Assembly: GCF_057098645.1 (NCBI RefSeq)
Contig: NZ_CM169472.1
DNA: 64,000 nt
Reading direction: 5' to 3' (one strand)
Of the stretch, positions 39,123 to 49,463 are shown one piece after another; the stretch's first letter is position 1; each line of letters begins with the position of its first letter. The notes beneath the pieces are model-generated. The model saw only the letters and a list, made by a program, of their open reading frames with translations. It ran no database searches and had not been told where the DNA came from. A program made the translations under genes and the position numbers.

Positions 39123-40055
39123 TTAATTCTCCCGATGCAGTAAATCCTGATAGATCCCCGTTAATATGCCATTTGGCGCAAATTGTTTTTTAATCCACTG
39201 CGTCACCTGACCCGTAGCAGAATGCTGAGTCGCCAGCAACATGCGCGAATCCTGGCGCGGATTATGGATTTGTCGGGTAACCAGCAGGGATTGCGTCATC
39301 GCCTCACGGACCATGTAATCCGGCAAAAAACCAATCCCTTCACCTAAAATCTGGCACTGACATTTGGTGTTGAAATCTGGCACCAGAATTGACTCCTGCC
39401 CATGCAGCAACCAGCCCACTTTTTTATTAATCGTATGCGCGGTGTCCTCCACCATGATATTAGGGTAGAGACGCAGCTGGCTTTCGGCGATGGGTTCCGG
39501 CACATAGGCTAATGGGTGATCCGGGGCAATGGCAAAAGCCCAGCGAATCGCGCCAATCTCCGTGTAATCAATGCCGCCACCGTCCAGCAGCGTGTCGGGT
39601 GCGCCGATAGCGATATTGGCCTGATTATTAATAATCGCATCCCAGACGCCGTTATACACTTCGGTCGTCACGGTAATCTGGCAGGTAGGAAACTGCTTTT
39701 TCAGCACCTGTAATAAGCGCGCGGTGTGTTTGGGCGTATAAAGCAGCTGATTAATACAAATGCGCACCCGTGCTTCTATGCCCTGCGAAATAGTATCGAG
39801 ACTGCGTTTGATGGCGTGAAAATCATTCAGCAAGTCGGTAGCTTTGCGGAAAAAATAACGCCCGGACTCCGTTAACTCAATGCTGCGGGTACTGCGAGTG
39901 AACAACACCACATCCAGCCCCGTTTCCATACGCTTAATGGTGTAGCTAATGGCGGAAGTGGTTAAACCCAACTCGTCTGCGGCTTTACTGAAGCTGCCAA
40001 ATCGCGCAGCGGTAGTAAATGCCAATAGATTCTCTTCGGTAAAAACTGAGTTCAT
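39123..40055 (-). CDS. yahB: LysR-family regulator YahB
   Basis: 310 aa LysR HTH (FSKAADELGLTTSAISYTIKRME). Confidence 0.85.
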   Translation of the reverse strand: MNSVFTEENLLAFTTAARFGSFSKAADELGLTTSAISYTIKRMETGLDVVLFTRSTRSIELTESGRYFFRKATDLLNDFHAIKRSLDTISQGIEARVRICINQLLYTPKHTARLLQVLKKQFPTCQITVTTEVYNGVWDAIINNQANIAIGAPDTLLDGGGIDYTEIGAIRWAFAIAPDHPLAYVPEPIAESQLRLYPNIMVEDTAHTINKKVGWLLHGQESILVPDFNTKCQCQILGEGIGFLPDYMVREAMTQSLLVTRQIHNPRQDSRMLLATQHSATGQVTQWIKKQFAPNGILTGIYQDLLHREN

Positions 40056-40146
40056 TAAACCATTCCCGCCATTATCTAATATGAATTTCTCCAGCCATGA
40101 CTGTAGAGGTATCGATTAAAGATAGATAATCATTTTTGAATAACTT

Positions 40147-40644
40147 TTAATACCCGTCGCGTTTAGTCGTCGCTTCGCTTAATTTTTGTCCGCCATATTC
40201 TGAAATTATCCCCACGCAGTTACCCGCCAGAAAACCCAGTAACGTCACCGTCCAGTTCATCCCGCAGGCAAAAAACAGCGTCATGCCGAGAAAGCCACCG
40301 GGAATAAATGACAGTAACCAGAAACGCCCTTGCCAGACCACCACCGCCGAGAAGGGTACGGTAGTAATTACGCTCGCCCAGAACGCGGACAGTCCACTTA
40401 CAGTGGCCAGCCAACCGGCAGTCAGCGCGGCGAAAAACGCCCACACCATCCCGGAATAATTAACCGCCAGACTTCTGATAAACCCCGATTTACCGCCGCC
40501 TGCGGCATAAAAACTGCAAAAGGCGACGAAGCCTGTCGTTCCTAATAATTCCCATCCCTGAGAGAGCCCGACATGTGAAGACACTAACTGCCAAAGCCCT
40601 GCACAAATACCGACGGTGACACCCGTTGCCGTGAGTCCGTTCAT
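40147..40644 (-). CDS. yahC: inner membrane protein YahC
   Basis: 165 aa, multiple TM segments. Confidence 0.8.
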   Translation of the reverse strand: MNGLTATGVTVGICAGLWQLVSSHVGLSQGWELLGTTGFVAFCSFYAAGGGKSGFIRSLAVNYSGMVWAFFAALTAGWLATVSGLSAFWASVITTVPFSAVVVWQGRFWLLSFIPGGFLGMTLFFACGMNWTVTLLGFLAGNCVGIISEYGGQKLSEATTKRDGY

Positions 40645-40901
40645 CTTGTTCCCCTCTGGTTAGACATGGACGAAAGCTACTCTTACATGTGCAGACTATA
40701 GAGAAATAAAACCTGATTGAGTGAAAGGGTATCGGGTCAAAGAAACAAATATTGCACTACCGCACACTGCGAAAAGATTGTTGAACATCATTCAACAAAA
40801 AGGCGAAATACGGCGAATTAAATTTAAGCGGGTTCTTTTATCAGATTATCGTTGCTATTCTCAATTCATCGAAAACAGCCACAAAAACCAGGGGAATGTG
40901 A

Positions 40902-41507
40902 ATGAGTATAAAAAATCTACCTGCCGACTATTTATTGGCTGCACAACAGGGTGATATCGATAAAGTAAAAAACTGCCTTGCGCTGGGTGTCGATATTAAT
41001 ACCTGCGACCGTCAGGGGAAAACGGCAATTACGCTGGCAAGTTTATATCAGCAATATGCTTGCGTTCAGGCATTAATTGACGCCGGAGCGGATATTAATA
41101 AACAAGATCATACCTGTTTAAATCCTTTTTTAATTAGCTGTCTGAACGATGATTTAACGCTACTACGAATTATTTTACCGGCTAAACCCGATCTTAATTG
41201 CGTAACCCGTTTTGGCGGTGTCGGCCTGACGCCTGCCTGTGAAAAAGGCCATTTAAGTATTGTAAAAGAGCTTTTGGCGCATACGGAGATTAACGTTAAC
41301 CAGACCAACCATGTAGGCTGGACGCCGCTACTGGAAGCGATTGTGCTTAATGATGGTGGTATTAAACAGCAGGCGATTGTGCAGTTATTGCTGGAACACA
41401 GTGCCAGCCCGCATCTGACCGATAAATATGGCAAAACGCCACTGGAACTGGCGCGAGAACGGGGCTTTGAAGAGATTGCGCAGTTACTGATTGCCGCAGG
41501 TGCATAA
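40902..41507 (+). CDS. yahD: ankyrin-repeat protein YahD
   Basis: Repeated ankyrin motifs (GKTAITLAS, GWTPLLEA, GKTPLELA). Confidence 0.85.
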   Translation: MSIKNLPADYLLAAQQGDIDKVKNCLALGVDINTCDRQGKTAITLASLYQQYACVQALIDAGADINKQDHTCLNPFLISCLNDDLTLLRIILPAKPDLNCVTRFGGVGLTPACEKGHLSIVKELLAHTEINVNQTNHVGWTPLLEAIVLNDGGIKQQAIVQLLLEHSASPHLTDKYGKTPLELARERGFEEIAQLLIAAGA

Positions 41508-41546
41508 ACCGGGAGGCTTGCTATCAACACACCAGAAAAACGGTGT

Positions 41547-42410
41547 GTGTGGGCGCTAACTGCGGATGCGGATTTTCTGGCGCGGCGGGGGCAAGGACAG
41601 GTTGAACAGGTTTTTGCCAGAGCGGTAAATATCGCACTCCCGGCTCGCCAGCAGTTGCTGACGCTGCTTTGTGAAGAGTACGACAATGCGCCAAACAGTT
41701 GTCGGTTGGCACTCACTCACTTTGATGATCTGTTCCGGCATGGTGATAAGGTTCAGTTTGACGATCAAGGTATTACGGTTGGTCAACATCTTCATATAGA
41801 GATGAGTCGTTGTCGGCGTTGGCTGTCCCCAACCTTGCAAATGACCGCTGTGAATTTTCACCTTATCGCCTGGCAACAGTGGCACGACATTATTCATCAG
41901 CACCTGGGGGAAAATGAAACCCTGTTTAATTATCGCGGCGATAATCCGTTTTATCAGGCGTTAAATAAAGAATTACATATTAAACGACGGGCAGTTATTC
42001 AGACAGTAAACGATAAACAAAATATCGCCTCAGCGGTCGCCAGTATGATGGGCTTAGGGATTGGCCTTACGCCATCAGCCGATGATTATTTAACAGGTCT
42101 GGCACTTATTTTATTTATTTCCGGGCATCCGGCGGGAAAATACAAAGAGGAATTTTATCTCGGCTTGCAACGCGGCAGAAATAATACCACGTTATTAAGT
42201 GCCATAACGCTGGAAGCCGCATTACAACAACGCTGCCGGGAAAATATTCATCGTTTTATTCACAACATTATTTATGACATCCCTGGGAACGCAACTCAGG
42301 CAATAGAAAAAATTAAACATATTGGCTCCAGTTCCGGCTGCGACATGCTGTATGGCATGGCCGATGGTTGTGCGCTGAGCCAAACCTACGGAGGGAATTA
42401 TGTCAGTTAA
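41547..42410 (+). CDS. yahE: uncharacterized protein YahE
   Basis: 287 aa; overlaps yahF start; conserved order yahEFG. Confidence 0.8.
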   Translation: MWALTADADFLARRGQGQVEQVFARAVNIALPARQQLLTLLCEEYDNAPNSCRLALTHFDDLFRHGDKVQFDDQGITVGQHLHIEMSRCRRWLSPTLQMTAVNFHLIAWQQWHDIIHQHLGENETLFNYRGDNPFYQALNKELHIKRRAVIQTVNDKQNIASAVASMMGLGIGLTPSADDYLTGLALILFISGHPAGKYKEEFYLGLQRGRNNTTLLSAITLEAALQQRCRENIHRFIHNIIYDIPGNATQAIEKIKHIGSSSGCDMLYGMADGCALSQTYGGNYVS

Positions 42411-43947
42411 AATAGTCATTAAACCGAATACCTATTTTGATTCTGTCTCGCTGATGTCTATCTCCACGCGTGCAAATAAACTCGACGGCGTCGAGCAGGC
42501 ATTTGTGGCGATGGCGACCGAAATGAACAAAGGTGTGCTGAAAAATTTAGGACTGCTGACGCCGGAGCTGGAACAGGCGAAAAACGGCGACCTGATGATT
42601 GTCATCAATGGTAAATCGGGGGCGGACAACGAGCAGTTGCTGGTGGAGATTGAAGAACTGTTCAACAGCAAAGCGCAAAGCGGCTCGCACGAGGCGCGTT
42701 ACGCCACTATTGCCAGCGCCAAAAAGCATATCCCGGAAAGTAACCTGGCGGTGATTTCGGTCAACGGTCTGTTTGCCGCTCGCGAAGCGCGTCAGGCGCT
42801 GCAAAACGATCTCAACGTGATGCTGTTTTCCGATAACGTCTCGGTTGAAGATGAACTGGCGCTCAAGCAACTGGCCCACGAAAAAGGGCTGCTGATGATG
42901 GGGCCAGACTGTGGCACGGCGATTATCAACGGCGCGGCGCTCTGTTTTGGTAACGCCGTGCGTCGCGGCAACATCGGTATTGTTGGCGCATCCGGCACCG
43001 GCAGCCAGGAGCTGAGCGTCCGCATTCATGAATTTGGTGGCGGCGTTTCACAACTGATTGGCACCGGCGGGCGCGACCTGAGCGAGAAAATCGGCGGCCT
43101 GATGATGCTCGACGCCATCGGGATGCTGGAAAACGATCCGCAAACTGAAATTATCGCGCTGATTTCAAAACCTCCCGCGCCTGCGGTGGCCCGTAAAGTG
43201 CTGGAACGCGCCCGCGCCTGCCGCAAGCCGGTGGTGGTCTGCTTCCTCGGTCGTGGCGAAACGCCGGTTGACGAGCAGGGGCTACAGTTTGCTCGCGGCA
43301 GCAAAGAAGCGGCGCTAAAAGCGGTGATGCTCTCCGGCGTGAAACAGGAAAATCTCGACCTGCATACCCTGAACCAGCCGTTGATTGCGGATGTGCGTGC
43401 GCGTCTGCAACCCCAGCAGAAATACATTCGTGGCCTGTTCTGCGGCGGCACGTTGTGCGACGAAACCATGTTCGCGGTGATGGAAAAACATGGCGATGTC
43501 TACAGCAACATTCAGCCCGATCCGGAATTCCGCCTGAAAGATATCAACCGCAGCATCAAACACACCTTCCTCGACTTTGGCGATGACGACTTCACCAACG
43601 GCAAGCCGCATCCAATGATTGACCCCACCAACCGCATCAGTCGCTTGCTCGAAGAGGCGCGCGATCCAGAAGTGGCGGTGATCGTGATGGATTTTGTGCT
43701 CGGATTTGGATCGCATGAAGATCCGGTAGGCTCCACCATCGAGGCGATCAAAGAAGCGAAAGCGATCGCCGCTGCCGAAGGACGCGAGTTGATCATTCTC
43801 GCCTATGTGCTGGGTACCGATCTTGATACGCCATCGTTAGAACAACAAAGCCAGATGCTGCTTGATGCCGGAGTGATTCTGGCGAGCAGCAGCACCAATA
43901 CCGGATTGCTGGCGCGTGAATTTATCTGCAAAGGGGAGGAAGCCTGA
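42400..43947 (+). CDS. yahF: FdrA-like CoA-binding protein YahF
   Basis: 515 aa with succinyl-CoA-synthetase-alpha-like CoA-binding fold. Confidence 0.85.
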   Translation: MSVKIVIKPNTYFDSVSLMSISTRANKLDGVEQAFVAMATEMNKGVLKNLGLLTPELEQAKNGDLMIVINGKSGADNEQLLVEIEELFNSKAQSGSHEARYATIASAKKHIPESNLAVISVNGLFAAREARQALQNDLNVMLFSDNVSVEDELALKQLAHEKGLLMMGPDCGTAIINGAALCFGNAVRRGNIGIVGASGTGSQELSVRIHEFGGGVSQLIGTGGRDLSEKIGGLMMLDAIGMLENDPQTEIIALISKPPAPAVARKVLERARACRKPVVVCFLGRGETPVDEQGLQFARGSKEAALKAVMLSGVKQENLDLHTLNQPLIADVRARLQPQQKYIRGLFCGGTLCDETMFAVMEKHGDVYSNIQPDPEFRLKDINRSIKHTFLDFGDDDFTNGKPHPMIDPTNRISRLLEEARDPEVAVIVMDFVLGFGSHEDPVGSTIEAIKEAKAIAAAEGRELIILAYVLGTDLDTPSLEQQSQMLLDAGVILASSSTNTGLLAREFICKGEEA

Positions 43948-45365
43948 TGAGCCAGTCACTGTTTAGCCAACCATTGAACGTTATTAACGTCGGCATCGCC
44001 ATGTTTAGCGATGACCTGAAAAAGCAGCATGTAGAAGTGACTCAACTCGACTGGACGCCGCCGGGGCAGGGCAATATGCAGGTGGTGCAGGCGCTGGATA
44101 ACATTGCCGATTCGCCGCTGGCAGACAAAATCGCCGCCGCTAACCAGCAGGCGCTGGAGCGCATTATCCAGTCGCATCCGGTGCTGATTGGTTTTGAGCA
44201 GGCGATTAACGTGGTGCCGGGCATGACGGCGAAAACCATTCTTCACGCCGGGCCGCCGATCACCTGGGAAAAAATGTGCGGCGCGATGAAAGGCGCGGTC
44301 ACCGGAGCGCTGGTGTTCGAAGGACTGGCGAAAGATCTCGACGAGGCGGCTGAACTGGCGGCTTCCGGGGAGATCACCTTCTCGCCGTGCCACGAACACG
44401 ACTGTGTGGGATCGATGGCGGGTGTTACCTCGGCCTCGATGTTTATGCACATCGTAAAAAACAAAACCTACGGCAACATCGCTTATACCAACATGAGCGA
44501 GCAGATGGCGAAGATTTTGCGTATGGGCGCTAACGACCAGAGCGTGATTGACCGCCTGAACTGGATGCGTGATGTGCAGGGACCAATACTGCGCGACGCG
44601 ATGAAAATTATCGGCGAAATCGATCTGCGCTTAATGCTGGCGCAGGCGCTGCATATGGGCGATGAGTGCCATAACCGCAATAACGCCGGGACGACGCTGC
44701 TGATTCAGGCGCTGACGCCGGGGATTATTCAGGCGGGCTACTCCGTCGAGCAACAGCGCGAAGTGTTTGAGTTTGTCGCCAGCAGCGACTACTTCTCCGG
44801 CCCGACGTGGATGGCGATGTGTAAAGCGGCGATGGATGCGGCGCACGGCATCGAATACAGCACCGTGGTCACCACCATGGCGCGTAACGGCGTCGAGTTC
44901 GGCCTGCGGGTCAGCGGCCTGCCGGGGCAATGGTTTACCGGTCCGGCGCAGCAGGTGATCGGCCCGATGTTTGCCGGTTATAAGCCGGAAGATTCGGGGC
45001 TGGATATCGGCGACAGTGCCATCACCGAAACCTACGGTATTGGCGGATTTGCCATGGCGACCGCGCCCGCTATCGTCGCGCTGGTGGGCGGCACGGTGGA
45101 AGAAGCTATTGATTTCTCCCGTCAGATGCGCGAAATCACCCTCGGTGAAAACCCCAACGTCACCATTCCACTGCTCGGTTTTATGGGCGTACCGTCGGCA
45201 ATCGACATCACCCGCGTGGGCAGCAGCGGCATTTTGCCGGTGATCAACACCGCCATCGCCCATAAAGATGCGGGCGTCGGCATGATTGGCGCGGGCATTG
45301 TGCATCCACCTTTCGCCTGCTTCGAGAAAGCCATTCTTGGCTGGTGCGAACGTTACGGCGTCTGA
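43947..45365 (+). CDS. yahG: DUF1116-family protein YahG
   Basis: 472 aa; start overlaps yahF stop. Confidence 0.85.
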   Translation: MSQSLFSQPLNVINVGIAMFSDDLKKQHVEVTQLDWTPPGQGNMQVVQALDNIADSPLADKIAAANQQALERIIQSHPVLIGFEQAINVVPGMTAKTILHAGPPITWEKMCGAMKGAVTGALVFEGLAKDLDEAAELAASGEITFSPCHEHDCVGSMAGVTSASMFMHIVKNKTYGNIAYTNMSEQMAKILRMGANDQSVIDRLNWMRDVQGPILRDAMKIIGEIDLRLMLAQALHMGDECHNRNNAGTTLLIQALTPGIIQAGYSVEQQREVFEFVASSDYFSGPTWMAMCKAAMDAAHGIEYSTVVTTMARNGVEFGLRVSGLPGQWFTGPAQQVIGPMFAGYKPEDSGLDIGDSAITETYGIGGFAMATAPAIVALVGGTVEEAIDFSRQMREITLGENPNVTIPLLGFMGVPSAIDITRVGSSGILPVINTAIAHKDAGVGMIGAGIVHPPFACFEKAILGWCERYGV

Positions 45366-45378
45366 CCTGCATGTTCAT

Positions 45379-45655
45379 GCCGGATGCGGCGTGAACGCCT
45401 TATCCGGCCTACGAATGGCGCAAGAATCTGTAGGCCTGATAAGCGTAGCGCATCAGGCATTTGTCACCATTGCCGGATGCGGCGTGAACGCCTTATCCGG
45501 CCTACAAGTGGCGCAAGAATTTGTAGGCCTGATAAGCGTAGCGCATCAGGCATTTGTCACCATTGCCGGATGCGGCGTGAACGCCTTATCCGGCCTACGA
45601 GTGGCACGAGAATTTGTAGGCCTGATAAGCGTAGCGCATCAGGCAATTTGGCGTT
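45379..45655. repeat. REP/BIME cluster, three tandem ~60-bp units
   Basis: gccggatgcggcgtgaacgccttatccggcctac ... ctgataagcgtagcgcatcaggca repeated three times; track ORFs here are artefacts of the repeat. Confidence 0.9.
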
Positions 45656-45694
45656 GGTCATAACCCCATCACCCTCTGTAGCGGACATAACAAC

Positions 45695-46645
45695 ATGAAA
45701 GAGCTTGTGGTCGTTGCCATTGGTGGCAACAGCATTATCAAAGATAACGCCAGCCAGTCGATTGAGCATCAGGCGGAGGCGGTGAAAGCCGTCGCCGATA
45801 CGGTGCTGGAAATGCTGGCTTCCGATTACGACATTGTGCTGACCCACGGTAACGGGCCGCAGGTCGGGCTGGATTTACGCCGTGCGGAGATTGCCCACGA
45901 GCGCGAAGGGCTCCCCTTAACGCCGCTGGCGAACTGTGTGGCGGATACGCAAGGTGGCATTGGCTATCTGATCCAGCAGGCGCTGAACAATCGACTGGCG
46001 CGCCACGGCGAGAAAAAAGCCGTCACCGTGGTGACTCAGGTGGAAGTGGATAAAAACGATCCGGGATTTGCCCATCCCACCAAGCCCATCGGCGCATTCT
46101 TCAGTGAAATCCAGCGTGACGAATTACAAAAGGCAAACCCTGACTGGCGTTTTGTTGAAGATGCCGGACGAGGCTATCGCCGCGTGGTCGCCTCGCCGGA
46201 ACCGAAACGTATTGTCGAAGCACCGGCCATTAAGGCGCTGATCCAGCAAGGCTTTGTGGTGATTGGCGCGGGCGGTGGCGGAATTCCTGTGGTGCGTACT
46301 GACGCGGGAGATTACCAAAGCGTGGACGCGGTTATCGACAAAGATCTCTCTACCGCGCTACTGGCCCGTGAAATTCACGCCGACATTCTTGTGATCACCA
46401 CTGGCGTGGAAAAAGTGTGTATTCACTTTGGCAAACCCGAGCAGCAGGCGCTGGATCGCGTAGATATTGCCACTATGACCCGCTATATGCAGGAAGGGCA
46501 TTTCCCGCCCGGCAGCATGTTGCCAAAAATCATCGCCAGCCTGACGTTCCTGGAACAGGGCGGTAAAGAAGTGATTATCACCACGCCGGAATGCCTGCCA
46601 GCGGCGCTGCGCGGTGAAACGGGCACCCACATTATTAAAACGTAA
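45695..46645 (+). CDS. yahI: carbamate kinase-like protein YahI
   Basis: 316 aa amino-acid-kinase fold (VVAIGGNS, THGNGPQVG). Confidence 0.9.
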   Translation: MKELVVVAIGGNSIIKDNASQSIEHQAEAVKAVADTVLEMLASDYDIVLTHGNGPQVGLDLRRAEIAHEREGLPLTPLANCVADTQGGIGYLIQQALNNRLARHGEKKAVTVVTQVEVDKNDPGFAHPTKPIGAFFSEIQRDELQKANPDWRFVEDAGRGYRRVVASPEPKRIVEAPAIKALIQQGFVVIGAGGGGIPVVRTDAGDYQSVDAVIDKDLSTALLAREIHADILVITTGVEKVCIHFGKPEQQALDRVDIATMTRYMQEGHFPPGSMLPKIIASLTFLEQGGKEVIITTPECLPAALRGETGTHIIKT

Positions 46646-46654
46646 GGACGTAAG

Positions 46655-48037
46655 ATGAAAGAAAACAATAGCCGCCGTGAATTTCTGAGCCAGAGCGGTA
46701 AGATGGTCACCGCCGCCGCGCTGTTTGGTACCTCTGTGCCGTTCGCCCATGCGGCGGTCTCTGGCACCACAAACTGCGAAGCGAACAACACCATGAAAAT
46801 CACTGACCCGCATTACTATCTCGACAACGTGCTGCTGGAAACTGGATTTGACTACGAAAATGGCGTGGCGGTTCAGACCCGCACGGCGCGCCAGACCGTG
46901 GAGATTCAGAACGGCAAAATTGTCGCGCTGCGCGAGAATAAGCAGCACCCGGATGCCACGCTGCCGCACTATGACGCTGGCGATAAGCTGATGCTGCCCA
47001 CCACCCGCGACATGCATATTCATCTCGACAAAACCTTCTACGGCGGGCCGTGGCGCTCGCTCAATCGTTCGGCAGGCACCACTATCCAGGACATGATCAA
47101 ACTCGAGCAGAAAATGCTGCCGGAGTTACAACCGTATACGCAGGAGCGGGCGGAAAAACTGATCGATCTATTGCAGTCGAAAGGCACCACCATTGCCCGC
47201 AGCCACTGCAATATCGAACCGGTTTCCGGCCTGAAAAATCTGCAAAATTTGCAGGCGGTGCTGGCGCGGCGTCAGGCGGGCTTCGAGTGTGAAATCGTCG
47301 CCTTCCCGCAGCACGGTTTGCTGCTGTCGAAATCGGAACCCTTAATGCGCGAAGCGATGCAGGCGGGGGCGCATTACGTCGGCGGGCTGGACCCGACCAG
47401 TGTCGATGGCGCGATGGAAAAATCCCTCGACACCATGTTCCAGATTGCGCTGGACTACGACAAAGGCGTCGATATTCACCTGCACGAAACCACTCCGTCG
47501 GGCGTGGCAGCCATCAATTATATGGTTGAAACGGTAGAGAAAACGCCGCAACTGAAAGGTAAGCTGACCATCAGCCACGCCTTTGCGCTGGCTACGCTCA
47601 ACGAACAACAGGTCGATGCGCTGGCGAATCGGATGGCGGCGCAGCAAATTTCTATCGCCTCGACGGTGCCGATTGGCACGCTGCATATGCCGCTCAAACA
47701 GTTGCACGACAAAGGCGTAAAAGTGATGACTGGCACTGACAGCGTTATCGACCACTGGTCGCCTTATGGTCTGGGCGACATGCTGGAAAAAGCCAATCTC
47801 TACGCGCAGCTCTATATTCGTCCTAACGAACAGAACCTCTCCCGTTCGCTGTTTTTAGCCACTGGCGATGTATTGCCGCTGAATGAAAAAGGCGAGCGTG
47901 TATGGCCAAAAGCGCAGGATGACGCCAGCTTTGTGCTGGTGGACGCCTCCTGTTCCGCCGAGGCGGTGGCGCGTATCTCGCCGAGAACCGCAACGTTCCA
48001 TAAAGGGCAACTGGTGTGGGGGAGTGTGGCAGGTTGA
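46655..48037 (+). CDS. yahJ: amidohydrolase-family protein YahJ with Tat-type signal peptide
   Basis: SRREFLS twin-arginine motif then hydrophobic region; metal-dependent hydrolase His motifs (HIHLD). Confidence 0.85.
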   Translation: MKENNSRREFLSQSGKMVTAAALFGTSVPFAHAAVSGTTNCEANNTMKITDPHYYLDNVLLETGFDYENGVAVQTRTARQTVEIQNGKIVALRENKQHPDATLPHYDAGDKLMLPTTRDMHIHLDKTFYGGPWRSLNRSAGTTIQDMIKLEQKMLPELQPYTQERAEKLIDLLQSKGTTIARSHCNIEPVSGLKNLQNLQAVLARRQAGFECEIVAFPQHGLLLSKSEPLMREAMQAGAHYVGGLDPTSVDGAMEKSLDTMFQIALDYDKGVDIHLHETTPSGVAAINYMVETVEKTPQLKGKLTISHAFALATLNEQQVDALANRMAAQQISIASTVPIGTLHMPLKQLHDKGVKVMTGTDSVIDHWSPYGLGDMLEKANLYAQLYIRPNEQNLSRSLFLATGDVLPLNEKGERVWPKAQDDASFVLVDASCSAEAVARISPRTATFHKGQLVWGSVAG

Positions 48038-48413
48038 TGCGCATTTGAAACGCCTGCAACGGTGAATAGTAAGAGATTTAAGCCCCAGGGAGTGGGGCAA
48101 TCTGAATATGAGTGTGTCGGCAGAAATGGACATTATCTTTGAGGAATATGCCCTTATTGACGTTGTGTAGATAACTATTTGTCTACGTGAAAAGATCATC
48201 AGTTTTGCCGATTTTAGTCTTTTACGGATAGCAAATATCACACTTATAGGCGCTCGCCTTATGGGGAACGTTGCTGCTCTGTTTCATTCAGGCTCGTGGC
48301 ATGTTGGGGCTGGATCGGGTGGTTTAAATATTGGCTATATTCAATGGACGCGTTTTGCCGCGATGACATATCAGGCATCGCCAAATACACATAGCTAATC
48401 AGGAGTAAACACA

Positions 48414-49463
48414 ATGAAGATCAAAGCTGTTGGTGCATATTCCGCTAAACAACCACTTGAACCGATGGATATCACCCGGCGTGAACCGGGACCGAATGAT
48501 GTCAAAATCGAAATCGCTTACTGTGGCGTCTGCCATTCCGATCTCCACCAGGTCCGTTCCGAGTGGGCGGGGACGGTTTACCCCTGCGTGCCGGGTCATG
48601 AAATTGTGGGGCGTGTGGTAGCCGTTGGTGATCAGGTAGAAAAACATGCGCTGGGCGATCTGGTCGGTGTCGGCTGCATTGTCGACAGTTGTAAACATTG
48701 CGAAGAGTGTGAAGACGGGCTGGAAAACTACTGTGATCACATGACCGGCACCTATAACTCGCCGACGCCGGACGAACCGGGCCATACTCTGGGCGGCTAC
48801 TCACAACAGATCGTCGTTCATGAGCGATATGTTCTGCGTATTCGTCACCCGCAAGAGCAGCTGGCGGCGGTGGCTCCTTTGTTGTGTGCAGGGATCACCA
48901 CGTATTCGCCGCTACGTCACTGGCAGGCCGGGCCGGGTAAAAAAGTGGGCGTGGTCGGCATCGGCGGTCTGGGACATATGGGGATTAAGCTGGCCCACGC
49001 GATGGGGGCACATGTGGTGGCATTTACCACTTCTGAGGCAAAACGCGAAGCGGCAAAAGCCCTGGGGGCCGATGAAGTTGTTAACTCACGCAATGCCGAT
49101 GAGATGGCGGCTCATCTGAAGAGTTTCGATTTCATTTTGAATACAGTAGCTGCGCCACATAATCTCGACGATTTTACCACCTTGCTGAAGCGTGATGGCA
49201 CCATGACGCTGGTTGGTGCGCCTGCGACACCGCATAAATCGCCGGAAGTTTTCAACCTGATCATGAAACGCCGTGCGATAGCCGGTTCTATGATTGGCGG
49301 CATTCCAGAAACTCAGGAGATGCTCGATTTTTGCGCCGAACATGGCATCGTGGCTGATATAGAGATGATTCGGGCCGATCAAATTAATGAAGCCTATGAG
49401 CGAATGCTGCGCGGTGATGTGAAATATCGTTTTGTTATCGATAATCGCACACTAACAGACTGA
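48414..49463 (+). CDS. yahK: zinc-dependent NADPH aldehyde reductase YahK
   Basis: GHEIVGRV zinc-ADH signature, GIGGLGHMG Rossmann motif. Confidence 0.9.
   Translation: MKIKAVGAYSAKQPLEPMDITRREPGPNDVKIEIAYCGVCHSDLHQVRSEWAGTVYPCVPGHEIVGRVVAVGDQVEKHALGDLVGVGCIVDSCKHCEECEDGLENYCDHMTGTYNSPTPDEPGHTLGGYSQQIVVHERYVLRIRHPQEQLAAVAPLLCAGITTYSPLRHWQAGPGKKVGVVGIGGLGHMGIKLAHAMGAHVVAFTTSEAKREAAKALGADEVVNSRNADEMAAHLKSFDFILNTVAAPHNLDDFTTLLKRDGTMTLVGAPATPHKSPEVFNLIMKRRAIAGSMIGGIPETQEMLDFCAEHGIVADIEMIRADQINEAYERMLRGDVKYRFVIDNRTLTD

What the first reader, a model, noticed from the sequence alone, without database searches (positions are those of the whole stretch)
41547..48037. yahEFG-yahIJ: tightly packed uncharacterized cluster with carbamate-kinase and Tat-exported amidohydrolase
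yahE/yahF/yahG overlap start-to-stop, implying translational coupling. A three-unit REP array follows, then a carbamate kinase homologue (yahI) and an amidohydrolase with a twin-arginine signal (yahJ). The combination of FdrA-like CoA-binding protein, DUF1116, carbamate kinase and periplasmic amidohydrolase suggests an uncharacterised catabolic route for a carbamoyl or ureido compound. Function is, to my knowledge, not established.
Basis: partly seen in the sequence, partly recalled or inferred. Interest (0 to 1): 0.4.

Follow-up and report, generated by a model that had tools for sequence, protein, structure and literature searches.

The report
Second carbamoyl-transfer, ATP-yielding gene cluster
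The yah genes of E. coli are a second, uncharacterised copy of the newly described oxalurate-splitting enzyme plus carbamate kinase, joined to an exported deaminase-like enzyme; this predicts a testable pathway that takes nitrogen and ATP from an unknown ring compound.

Summary
yahE/yahF overlap by 11 nt and yahF/yahG by 1 nt. Three 93-nt REP/BIME units follow, then a carbamate kinase (yahI) and an amidohydrolase with an SRREFL twin-arginine signal (yahJ).

The "ureido compound catabolism" reading is supported and can be sharpened. YahF, YahG, YahE, YahI and the regulator YahB are paralogues (38, 45, 25, 38 and 39% identity) of AllF, AllG, AllH, AllK and AllS. AllFGH is the three-subunit oxamic transcarbamylase shown biochemically in 2024; AllK is its carbamate kinase and AllS its activator.

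The Yah set is a separate orthologous group. YahG is 75% identical to Bacillales proteins but only 45% to AllG. In both phyla it travels with an ankyrin protein (YahD) and AtzC/CodA-type amidohydrolases (YahJ).

Most Enterobacterales (55 of 66 loci) carry a 516-aa UraA-fold transporter between yahG and yahI. E. coli has the REP array at that position. A conserved dyad upstream of yahD suggests one YahB-controlled yahDEFG-IJ operon.

Likely mechanism: YahJ makes a ureide, YahEFG phosphorolyses it to carbamoyl phosphate, and YahI makes ATP. The substrate is unknown. This is a new variant of a known kind, of moderate interest.

The parts
39123..40055 (-). yahB, LysR-type regulator; paralogue of AllS, the activator of allFGHK
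   Evidence: Pfam HTH_1 + LysR_substrate. Best NCBIfam model is AllS (269 bits, below the 372 cut-off), then PunR. 39% identical to AllS of the same genome. Divergent from yahD in all surveyed loci. dN/dS about 0.02.
40147..40644 (-). yahC, DUF1097 membrane protein lying between yahB and yahD
   Evidence: Pfam DUF1097. Present in exactly the 11 species-level loci that lack the 516-aa transporter, and absent from the 55 that have it.
40778..40798 (.). Dyad TTGTTGAA-N5-TTCAACAA (contains T-N11-A), 124 nt before the yahD ATG; candidate YahB operator
   Evidence: Found with at most 1 mismatch within 250 nt upstream of yahD in 65 of 83 loci, against 0.0001 per shuffled locus. The arms are conserved while the spacer varies. 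Also present in Erwinia and Pragia loci that hold only yahB-yahD-yahJ. Binding by YahB is inferred.
40902..41507 (+). yahD, 201-aa ankyrin-repeat protein without a signal peptide; likely first gene of the operon
   Evidence: Pfam Ank families. Precedes yahE/yahF in all surveyed enterobacterial loci and pairs with yahJ alone in Erwinia and Pragia. Ank+TPR homologues (34-36% identity) sit in the Firmicute clusters. dN/dS about 0.1.
41547..42410 (+). yahE, AllH-like (DUF2877) subunit
42400..43947 (+). yahF, AllF/FdrA-like subunit
   Evidence: NCBIfam FdrA subfamily 493 bits, cut-off 433. 38% identical to AllF. PDB 3DMY (FdrA) E = 4e-83. 64% identical to the Peribacillus orthologue.
43947..45365 (+). 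yahG, AllG-like (DUF1116) subunit, with an N-terminal ~55-aa segment that in AllF is C-terminal
   Evidence: Pfam AllG 298 bits. 45% identical to AllG. PDB 3CLQ E = 3e-195. 75% identical to the Peribacillus protein. Residues 12-53 align to AllF 513-554.
45378..45656 (.). REP/BIME array, three 93-nt units, filling the yahG-yahI spacer
   Evidence: Occupies the position where 55 of 66 related species-level loci carry a 516-aa transporter gene. The PGAP 'hypothetical protein' at 45337-45663 and the old 'yahH' are ORFs made of REP sequence.
45695..46645 (+). yahI, carbamate kinase family protein
   Evidence: NCBIfam PRK12352 648 bits, cut-off 266. The arcC equivalog scores 346, just under its 358 cut-off. 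38% identical to AllK. 55-58% identical to Bacillales cluster kinases.
46655..48037 (+). yahJ, mononuclear metallo-amidohydrolase of the AtzC/CodA group; residues 1-33 (46655-46753) are a twin-arginine signal peptide
   Evidence: NCBIfam PRK06846 713 bits; cytosine deaminase models fall far below their cut-offs. Best PDB hits are 6NBO, AtzC 2QT3/4CQB, then CodA. H121, H123, H275, H308, D362, K126 and W368 are invariant in 100 homologues; RRxFL is in 92 of 93.

Best explanation
yahD-yahE-yahF-yahG-(REP)-yahI-yahJ is most likely one operon controlled by YahB. It encodes a second, independent "ureide phosphorolysis" module built like AllFGH-AllK.

Proposed steps:
1. YahJ, a metal-dependent AtzC/CodA-type amidohydrolase exported folded by the Tat system, hydrolyses (most likely deaminates) a planar oxo-substituted N-heterocycle or amidine in the periplasm.
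2. The product, or a derivative carrying an N-carbamoyl (N-acylurea) group, enters the cell. In most genera entry would be through a dedicated 516-aa UraA-fold permease that E. coli has lost.
3. YahE-YahF-YahG, a three-subunit carbamoyltransferase, transfers the carbamoyl group to phosphate, giving carbamoyl phosphate plus an amide or amine.
4. YahI converts carbamoyl phosphate plus ADP to ATP, NH3 and CO2.

The logic matches the arginine/agmatine deiminase pathways (hydrolase, then catabolic transcarbamylase, then carbamate kinase) but uses unrelated folds.

Shown here: gene anatomy, family membership, paralogy, cross-phylum conservation of the gene set, purifying selection, and the conserved operator-like dyad.

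Inferred: the reactions, the order of steps, co-transcription through the REP array, and YahB as the regulator.

Unknown: the substrate, and the role of the ankyrin protein YahD (possibly a partner of YahJ or of the transferase).
For: - Component-by-component paralogy with the characterised system: YahF/AllF 38%, YahG/AllG 45%, YahE/AllH 25%, YahI/AllK 38%, YahB/AllS 39%. Pfam AllG and AllH and NCBIfam FdrA are matched above their cut-offs.
- AllFGH activity, the need for all three genes, and the operon with allK are published (PMC11326118). AllS activates allF (PMC12535856).
- Subunit coupling: conserved start/stop overlaps; an AllF C-terminal segment relocated to the YahG N-terminus; a natural YahE-YahF fusion.
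- The Yah set is its own orthologous group, conserved between Proteobacteria and Bacilli. Peribacillus proteins are 64/75/55% identical to YahF/G/I but 36/46/37% to AllF/G/K.
- In both phyla the set sits with ankyrin proteins and YahJ-like amidohydrolases (40-44% identity), despite different gene orders and regulators.
- In 65 of 66 enterobacterial species-level loci with enough flank, yahJ follows yahI.
- YahJ keeps every metal ligand and the AtzC pocket residues Lys, Gln, His and Trp.
- Hints at a nucleobase-like substrate: the lost permease has the NAT/AzgA/SLC26 fold (AF2 pLDDT 93; Foldseek hits SVCT1, UraA, UapA, AZG). Paenibacillus replaces YahJ with a CDA-fold deaminase next to an AllW-like NCS1 permease and an AllC-like M20 amidase. 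Firmicute clusters carry PucR-family regulators.
- Sister subfamilies pair the same trio plus kinase with other ureide-producing hydrolases: cyanuric acid amidohydrolase on Klebsiella plasmids, an isochorismatase-family hydrolase in APEC O1, and biuH/trtA in nitrifiers (PMC12625717).
- The genes are maintained: dN/dS 0.02-0.09 for yahB, F, G, I and J, and yahFG is present in 5039 of 5426 complete E. coli genomes.
- A conserved dyad lies upstream of yahD. EHEC ribosome footprints cross the REP spacer.
Against: - No biochemical or genetic test of any Yah protein's activity was found.
- The cluster lacks an obvious ring-opening enzyme between an AtzC-type deamination and a linear ureide, so YahJ's product may not be YahEFG's substrate.
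- YahJ is predicted to be periplasmic while YahEFG and YahI must be cytoplasmic, and E. coli lacks the dedicated permease.
- The modules are separable. yahD-yahJ occurs without EFG-I in Erwinia and Pragia, yahJ occurs alone in Shewanella, and Paenibacillus and Enterococcus have EFG without a YahJ homologue within 10 kb.
- yahE is missing from 15 of 66 loci, although AllH matters for AllFGH.
- The succinyl-CoA synthetase phosphohistidine does not align to a His in YahF, so the catalytic chemistry is not understood.
- The promoter/terminator scan gave nothing above chance. Co-transcription of yahIJ with yahDEFG through a very stable REP structure is not demonstrated for this strain.
Confidence: 0.6

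Rival explanations
1. YahEFG is simply a second oxamic transcarbamylase (an isozyme acting on oxalurate). It would be expressed under other conditions or fed from another source, for example exogenous oxalurate or parabanate-type urate oxidation products, with YahI as its kinase.
For: - Same three families and the same partner kinase, with 38-45% identity for the two large subunits.
- The regulator is an AllS paralogue.
- The lost permease has a fold shared with anion and oxalate carriers.
- Partial restoration of oxamate by allFG or allGH plasmids in a triple mutant (7% and 16%) could reflect help from Yah subunits. This last point is speculation.
Against: - Delta-allF, delta-allG and delta-allFGH strains make no oxamate from allantoin although the strains carry yah. 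Lack of induction could explain this.
- The Yah proteins form an orthologous group that has stayed distinct from All across phyla: 75% versus 45% for YahG.
- They are never next to allD-type genes in the loci examined.
- They keep their own partners (YahJ, ankyrin, permease), which an oxalurate enzyme would not obviously need.
Confidence: 0.18
2. Two unrelated units lie side by side. yahDEFG(+yahI) is one function and yahJ (with yahD) another, for example a periplasmic deaminase that only scavenges ammonia or detoxifies a base analogue. YahJ would then not feed the transferase.
For: - yahB-yahD-yahJ exists without EFG-I in Erwinia and Pragia, and yahJ exists alone in Shewanella.
- EFG clusters without a YahJ homologue within 10 kb exist in Paenibacillus and Enterococcus.
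- The compartments differ (periplasm versus cytoplasm).
- A 329-nt structured REP spacer separates yahG from yahI in E. coli.
Against: - The same order D-E-F-G-(X)-I-J is kept in 65 of 66 loci across many genera.
- YahJ-like enzymes recur beside Yah-type EFG in Trichococcus, Oceanobacillus and Peribacillus with different gene orders. This is hard to explain without a functional link.
- Where YahJ is absent in Paenibacillus, another deaminase fold sits in the cluster.
- The operator-like dyad lies only upstream of yahD.
Confidence: 0.2
3. The cluster is a decaying remnant in E. coli. After loss of its permease (replaced by REP elements) it no longer performs its ancestral role.
For: - 55 of 66 related loci carry the 516-aa permease exactly where E. 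coli has only REP units.
- The genes are listed among uncharacterised y-genes.
- Only a weak mutant phenotype is reported: delta-yahJ competitive index 0.70 in ExPEC.
- Some E. coli carry a plasmid copy that does include the permease.
Against: - All ORFs are intact.
- dN/dS against E. albertii, C. amalonaticus and K. aerogenes is 0.02-0.09 for most genes.
- yahFG is present in 93% of complete genomes.
- The permease-less form, with yahC instead, is shared by Escherichia, Pseudocitrobacter, Kluyvera, C. amalonaticus, Klebsiella and Raoultella. It is therefore old and stable rather than a recent loss.
Confidence: 0.1
4. YahF acts as the database name says, as an acyl-CoA synthetase, and the cluster activates an organic acid with CoA rather than transferring carbamoyl groups.
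For: Pfam CoA_binding and Ligase_CoA domains, and similarity to succinyl-CoA synthetase alpha.
Against: - The only characterised member of the family is a carbamoyltransferase that needs the G and H subunits.
- The succinyl-CoA synthetase catalytic His region is not matched in YahF.
- A carbamate kinase gene is constantly linked to the trio.
Confidence: 0.04

Closest known systems
AllFGH oxamic transcarbamylase with AllK carbamate kinase and the AllS activator (E. coli allantoin regulon; Kim & Kim 2022, 2024, 2025)
   Same: - Three subunits of the same three families (FdrA, AllG/DUF1116, AllH/DUF2877).
- Tightly coupled genes with a carbamate kinase gene downstream.
- A LysR activator of the same subfamily.
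- Presumed chemistry: ureide + Pi gives carbamoyl phosphate + amide, then ATP.
   Different: - Gene order is H-F-G rather than F-G-H.
- The boundary between the F and G subunits is shifted by about 50 residues.
- Identity is only 25-45%.
- It forms a separate orthologous group conserved into Bacilli.
- It is not in the allantoin regulon and did not replace allFGH in vivo.
- It is accompanied by an ankyrin protein, a Tat-exported AtzC/CodA-type amidohydrolase and (outside the E. coli group) a UraA-fold permease.
- The substrate is unknown.
Arginine deiminase and agmatine deiminase pathways
   Same: The same three-step logic: a hydrolytic step creates a ureido compound, phosphorolysis by a catabolic transcarbamylase follows, and carbamate kinase makes ATP. 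A dedicated transporter is also part of the scheme.
   Different: - No shared folds. The transferase is not of the OTCase/ATCase family and the hydrolase is a TIM-barrel metalloenzyme.
- The first enzyme is predicted to be periplasmic.
- This is a resemblance of design, not family membership.
AtzC (N-isopropylammelide isopropylaminohydrolase) and CodA (cytosine deaminase), subtype III amidohydrolases
   Same: - YahJ keeps the HxH, His, His and Asp metal and catalytic residues.
- It keeps the AtzC substrate-pocket residues Lys65, Gln160, His219 and Trp309.
- AtzC and CodA are its best solved relatives.
   Different: - E-values to AtzC are only about 1e-28, and cytosine deaminase NCBIfam models score far below their cut-offs.
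- Asn304 of AtzC is Ser in YahJ.
- YahJ carries a Tat signal peptide, which its Firmicute relatives lack.
- No substrate is known.
Sister FdrA/DUF1116/DUF2877 + carbamate kinase clusters linked to cyanuric acid amidohydrolase (Klebsiella plasmids), an isochorismatase-family hydrolase (APEC O1 tkt1 island) or biuH/trtA (nitrifier genomes)
   Same: The same trio plus kinase, placed next to a hydrolase expected to produce an N-acylurea, usually with a nucleobase-type permease.
   Different: These form a third sequence subfamily (about 48% identity to both YahG and AllG), with different upstream hydrolases. None has been characterised biochemically.

Membership tests
AllFGH-type three-subunit carbamoyltransferase | F subunit of the FdrA family (CoA_binding + Ligase_CoA) | tested here: met
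   NCBIfam FdrA subfamily 492.7 bits, cut-off 433. 38% identical to AllF. PDB 3DMY E = 4e-83.
AllFGH-type three-subunit carbamoyltransferase | G subunit with the AllG (DUF1116) domain | tested here: met
   Pfam PF06545 297.9 bits, cut-off 27. 45% identical to AllG.
AllFGH-type three-subunit carbamoyltransferase | H subunit with the AllH (DUF2877) domain | tested here: met
   Pfam PF11392 98.4 bits, cut-off 25. 25% identical to AllH, E = 2e-10.
AllFGH-type three-subunit carbamoyltransferase | Linked carbamate kinase gene | tested here: met
   yahI lies 329 nt downstream of yahG. The kinase is present in all 66 related loci that have enough flank.
Oxamic transcarbamylase proper (orthologue of AllFGH acting on oxalurate) | Orthology with AllFGH and placement with allD/allC/allE under AllS control | tested here: not met
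   Different locus with its own regulator. YahG is 75% identical to Bacillales proteins but 45% to AllG. No allB, allD or allE homologues lie near the Yah-type clusters examined.
Oxamic transcarbamylase proper (orthologue of AllFGH acting on oxalurate) | Oxalurate/oxamate carbamoyl transfer activity | not testable with these tools
   The only indirect evidence is that delta-allF, delta-allG and delta-allFGH strains make no oxamate.
Carbamate kinase | Score above the curated family cut-off | tested here: met
   PRK12352 subfamily 648.2 bits, cut-off 266. The arcC equivalog TIGR00746 scores 346.0, just under its 358.25 cut-off.
Tat (twin-arginine) exported protein | S/T-R-R-x-F-L motif, hydrophobic core and AxA cleavage site at the N-terminus | tested here: met
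   SRREFLS at residues 6-12 and AHA at residues 31-33. RRxFL is conserved in 92 of 93 homologues. YahJ is listed as a predicted Tat substrate in PMC7549933.
Tat (twin-arginine) exported protein | Tat-dependent export of the protein | not testable with these tools
   From memory, the YahJ signal peptide was scored Tat-specific in reporter fusions (Tullman-Ercek et al. 2007). This was not checked here.
Cytosine deaminase (CodA) equivalog | Score above the curated cut-off of the cytosine deaminase models | tested here: not met
   103.5 bits against a 438 cut-off, 82.8 against 483, and 69.2 against 403.
Subtype III mononuclear amidohydrolase (AtzC/CodA group) | HxH (strand 1), His (strand 5), His (strand 6) and Asp (strand 8) | tested here: met
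   H121, H123, H275, H308 and D362 are invariant in 100 aligned homologues. Alignment to AtzC is; residue roles come from PMC4577212.
REP/BIME array | Tandem units, each containing REP palindromes in opposite orientation, in an intergenic spacer | tested here: met
   Three 93-nt units with inverted 16-nt arms 13 nt apart. Published descriptions call it REP23/BIME.
LysR-controlled divergent operon | T-N11-A dyad upstream of the target promoter, conserved across species | tested here: met
   Present in 65 of 83 loci, against 0.0001 expected per shuffled locus. Binding by YahB was not tested.
Arginine/agmatine deiminase pathway | OTCase-fold catabolic transcarbamylase and a guanidino-group-modifying deiminase | tested here: not met
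   No OTCase/ATCase domains and no deiminase fold in any Yah protein. The resemblance is functional only.

The most novel reading that the evidence does not exclude
The Yah system is an ancient pathway shared by Proteobacteria and Bacilli. It ferments an amino-oxo N-heterocycle (for example an ammelide-, aminouracil- or oxidised-purine-type compound) to ATP, NH3 and CO2.

In this reading:
- The AllFGH-like enzyme is an N-acylurea phosphorylase with a substrate other than oxalurate.
- The first step has moved to the periplasm in Gram-negative bacteria.
- The conserved ankyrin protein is a dedicated partner (assembly, export or scaffold factor) of the enzymes, a role not described for bacterial metabolic operons.
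Probability: 0.15. Interest if true: 0.7.

Novelty: new variant of a known kind. Interest (0 to 1): 0.45.

Why it matters
Seven adjacent E. coli y-genes would receive a concrete, testable biochemical hypothesis.

It would also show that the three-subunit carbamoyltransferase described in 2024 is not a one-off of allantoin metabolism. It would be the founding member of a family of ATP-conserving ureide phosphorylases, each paired with a different upstream hydrolase.

The full cluster, with its permease, is common in gut and urinary Enterobacterales and sits on conjugative plasmids of ExPEC/APEC strains. The pathway may therefore bear on nitrogen scavenging and energy gain from host- or diet-derived N-heterocycles.

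The comparative data say where to test it: in Citrobacter, Enterobacter or Serratia, which keep the permease, rather than in E. coli K-12.

Tried and rejected
- **Promoter/terminator scan of 40000-48500.** Counts were at or below the shuffle expectation and there was no plus-strand terminator, so it says nothing about operon structure.
- **Sequence searches for the 516-aa membrane protein** against Pfam, NCBIfam and PDB gave nothing. Only the exhaustive HMMER search plus AF2/Foldseek placed it in the UraA-fold superfamily.
- **Succinyl-CoA synthetase phosphohistidine in YahF.** The GHAGA region of the synthetase aligns to a gap or non-His stretch, so a synthetase-like phospho-His mechanism cannot be claimed.
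- **Genome-contig scan.** The 80 loci returned were all Enterobacterales plus Aeromonas, so Firmicute contexts rest on only five contigs found another way.
- **Two 2026 preprints on metallo bile-salt hydrolases** mention AtzC only as a landmark in a network of the Amidohydro_3 family. They are unrelated to YahJ.
- **UPEC transcriptome and mcr-1 plasmid papers** that mention DUF1116 refer to ylbE or to an unrelated SNP.
- **Papers that could not be read.** The Huynh & Stewart review of enterobacterial purine catabolism is not held. The paper cap stopped me reading two studies of uncharacterised LysR regulators that mention YahB.
- **Rejected:** the REP-encoded ORF ('yahH', the PGAP hypothetical protein) as a real gene of the pathway. 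It consists of REP units whose copy number varies between strains (three here, five in EDL933).

Full report
**What is in the sequence.** The window is E. coli. Positions 41547-48037 are 100% identical to O145 strain RM9872, where the genes are annotated yahE, fdrA (yahF), yahG, yahI and yahJ. yahE and yahF overlap by 11 nt, yahF and yahG share TGATG, and yahI and yahJ are 9 nt apart; each downstream start has a Shine-Dalgarno sequence. The yahF/yahG overlap is kept in 76 of 79 related loci. The 329-nt yahG-yahI spacer holds three 93-nt tandem units (45378-45656), each with two inverted REP palindromes. It folds far more stably than shuffled sequence. YahJ starts with SRREFLS, a hydrophobic core and AHA|A. 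The twin-arginine motif is present in 92 of 93 full-length homologues.

**Family assignments.** Pfam now names the former DUF1116 and DUF2877 "AllG" and "AllH". YahG and YahE match them well above threshold. YahF matches the NCBIfam FdrA subfamily, and YahI a carbamate kinase subfamily. In 2024 Kim and Kim showed that fdrA-ylbE-ylbF (allFGH) encode oxamic transcarbamylase. All three genes are needed in vivo, the purified complex has the activity, and the genes form an operon with the carbamate kinase gene allK (PMC11326118). AllS activates that operon (PMC12535856).

**Paralogy within the same genome.** I fetched the all cluster of the same genome and compared each pair. The identities are YahF/AllF 38%, YahG/AllG 45%, YahE/AllH 25%, YahI/AllK 38% and YahB/AllS 39%. 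The yah locus is therefore a full paralogue of the oxalurate module, regulator included. The papers on AllFGH that I read do not mention it.

**Evidence that E, F and G form one enzyme.**
- The starts and stops are coupled.
- About 45 residues that end AllF are found at the start of YahG (YahG 12-53 against AllF 513-554).
- In Zophobihabitans entericus, yahE and yahF form a single 817-codon ORF.

**A separate, old orthologous group.**
- YahG is about 72% identical to the uncharacterised PDB entry 3CLQ. Relatives of that protein are widespread in Bacilli.
- In Peribacillus the cluster proteins are 64%, 75% and 55% identical to YahF, YahG and YahI, but only 36%, 46% and 37% to AllF, AllG and AllK.
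- The Firmicute clusters are headed by a PucR-family regulator. They contain an ankyrin+TPR protein (34-36% to YahD), one to three YahJ-like amidohydrolases without signal peptides (36-44%), and often an AllC-like M20 amidase.
- Paenibacillus has no YahJ homologue. In its place it has a small CDA-fold deaminase and an AllW-like NCS1 permease.
- No allB, allD or allE homologues are nearby.

**Layout across Enterobacterales.** In 66 species-level loci with enough flank, the layouts are:

| Layout | Loci |
|---|---|
| yahB / yahD-E-F-G-X-I-J | 39 |
| the same without yahE | 15 |
| yahB-yahC / yahD-E-F-G-I-J, the E. coli type | 11 |
| yahB / yahD-E-F-G-X-I, without yahJ | 1 |

X is a 516-aa membrane protein with no Pfam, NCBIfam or PDB sequence match. 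An exhaustive search found about 2200 cluster representatives, a few of which weakly match Xan_ur_permease. A confident AF2 model (pLDDT 93) matches SVCT1, UraA, UapA, AZG and SLC26 carriers. E. coli has the REP array exactly where X lies elsewhere. yahC (DUF1097) is present only in the lineages that lack X. Erwinia and Pragia keep only yahB, yahD and yahJ, and Shewanella keeps yahJ alone.

**Operator.** A dyad, TTGTTGAA-N5-TTCAACAA at window 40778-40798, lies 124 nt before the yahD start in this window and about 118-135 nt before it in most other genera (further upstream, up to about 290 nt, in Providencia, Proteus and a few others). It is present in 65 of 83 loci, including the short Erwinia and Pragia form, against about 0.0001 expected per shuffled locus. 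Its arms are conserved while the spacer varies. It has the form of a LysR box and places the start of the operon at yahD.

**Are the genes alive in E. coli?** All ORFs are intact. dN/dS against E. albertii, C. amalonaticus and K. aerogenes is 0.02-0.09 for yahB, F, G, I and J, about 0.1 for yahD and 0.2-0.3 for yahE. yahFG is present in 5039 of 5426 complete genomes. In EHEC, ribosome footprints cover the REP spacer, and the authors suggested a yahDEFGIJ operon (PMC4765031). A delta-yahJ ExPEC mutant was slightly outcompeted in mice (competitive index 0.70, p = 0.02; PMC7549933).

**YahJ.** Its best solved relatives are 6NBO, AtzC and CodA. The five metal and catalytic residues are invariant. 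The AtzC pocket residues Lys65, Gln160, His219 and Trp309 are kept, and Asn304 is Ser. Cytosine deaminase models are far below their cut-offs. This points to hydrolysis, most likely deamination, on a planar oxo-substituted heterocycle. It does not name the substrate.

**Sister clusters.** The same trio plus kinase occurs in a third subfamily (about 48% to both YahG and AllG).
- On Klebsiella, Enterobacter and Aeromonas plasmids it sits next to a cyanuric acid amidohydrolase (580 bits, cut-off 360) and an NCS2 permease.
- In APEC O1 it sits next to an isochorismatase-family hydrolase.
- In nitrifiers it sits next to biuH/trtA (PMC12625717).

This supports a general picture in which these enzymes phosphorolyse N-acylureas made by varying upstream hydrolases.

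**Most likely mechanism (confidence about 0.6).** YahJ acts in the periplasm and its product is imported. YahEFG transfers a carbamoyl group to phosphate, and YahI makes ATP. The design matches the arginine and agmatine deiminase pathways, but the folds differ, so this is a functional resemblance and not family membership.

Weak points of this model:
- No ring-opening enzyme is in the cluster.
- The first enzyme and the later ones are in different compartments, and E. coli has no dedicated permease.
- The yahD-yahJ and EFG-I modules can occur separately.
- yahE is absent in some genera.
- The catalytic mechanism is unknown.

Rivals:

| Rival | Confidence |
|---|---|
| Second oxalurate isozyme | 0.18 |
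| Two unrelated neighbouring units | 0.2 |
| Decaying remnant in E. coli | 0.1 |
| True acyl-CoA ligase | 0.04 |

From memory, not checked here: E. coli has a third carbamate kinase cluster (ygeW-yqeA) tied to anaerobic urate breakdown. Klebsiella/Raoultella have been reported to convert melamine to cyanuric acid. That report makes ammelide-type compounds one candidate substrate among several.

**Verdict.** The cluster is a new variant of a known kind. The enzyme family has been characterised since 2024, but this orthologous group, its partners (a Tat-exported AtzC-like hydrolase, an ankyrin protein, a UraA-fold permease) and its substrate have not. Interest is moderate (0.45). A specialist would not be very surprised. 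Still, the analysis turns a block of y-genes into specific experiments and shows which species are the right ones to test.

Noticed in passing
window 40778-41507 (yahD): In the 100%-identical RefSeq record, PGAP annotates yahD as two 'incomplete' ankyrin pseudogene pieces. The window has an intact 201-codon ORF (40902-41507) of the same length as its orthologues. This looks like an annotation artefact.
   Followed up: partly
window 45337-45663: An annotated 'hypothetical protein' (the old yahH) is an ORF made entirely of REP units. The array has three 93-nt units here, but five blocks are reported in EHEC EDL933, where ribosome footprints cover it.
   Followed up: partly
L064:7536-9989 (Zophobihabitans entericus): yahE and yahF are fused into one 817-codon ORF, a natural fusion of the H-like and F-like subunits.
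   Followed up: partly
L096 (E. coli plasmid pEC598, NZ_KP119165.1 97122-116531): About 64 plasmid records in the search, from a set dominated by E. coli and mostly conjugative, carry a Yah-type YahG at 90-95% identity. The one inspected, pEC598, holds the LysR gene, ankyrin, DUF2877, FdrA, YahG, the 516-aa permease and YahI. It has no yahJ, and an IS100 lies just beyond the cluster.
   Followed up: partly
L097 (K. pneumoniae plasmid p19-10_02, NZ_CP023489.1 86280-105674): A third subfamily of the trio plus carbamate kinase lies next to a cyanuric acid amidohydrolase, an NCS2 permease and atzF fragments, flanked by IS26.
   Followed up: partly
L016, L017 (Pseudocitrobacter) compared with window 40147-48037: YahF, G, I and J are 96-100% identical to the E. 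coli proteins, but YahC, D and E are only 55-75% identical. This suggests a recombination breakpoint inside the cluster and recent exchange between the genera.
   Followed up: no
L039-L063 (Enterobacter, Leclercia, Lelliottia, Silvania) and L005/L077 (Aeromonas cavernicola): These loci have no yahE: yahF follows yahD directly. The AllH-like subunit is therefore either dispensable there or supplied from elsewhere in the genome.
   Followed up: no
about 296-313 nt upstream of yahD in most loci without yahC (e.g. L029, L044, L061): A second conserved element (GTTTTGAAC-N4-5-TTTAACA) lies near the yahB side of the divergent region. It may be an autoregulatory site.
   Followed up: no
L010, L011, L094 (Enterococcus-like contig, Trichococcus, Oceanobacillus): A conserved membrane protein of about 390 aa with no Pfam match follows the AllG-type gene in these Lactobacillales and Bacillales clusters. 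It is unrelated in sequence to the enterobacterial 516-aa permease.
   Followed up: partly
window 48253-48327: A 75-nt fragment annotated as the remnant of a hypothetical protein lies between yahJ and yahK.
   Followed up: no
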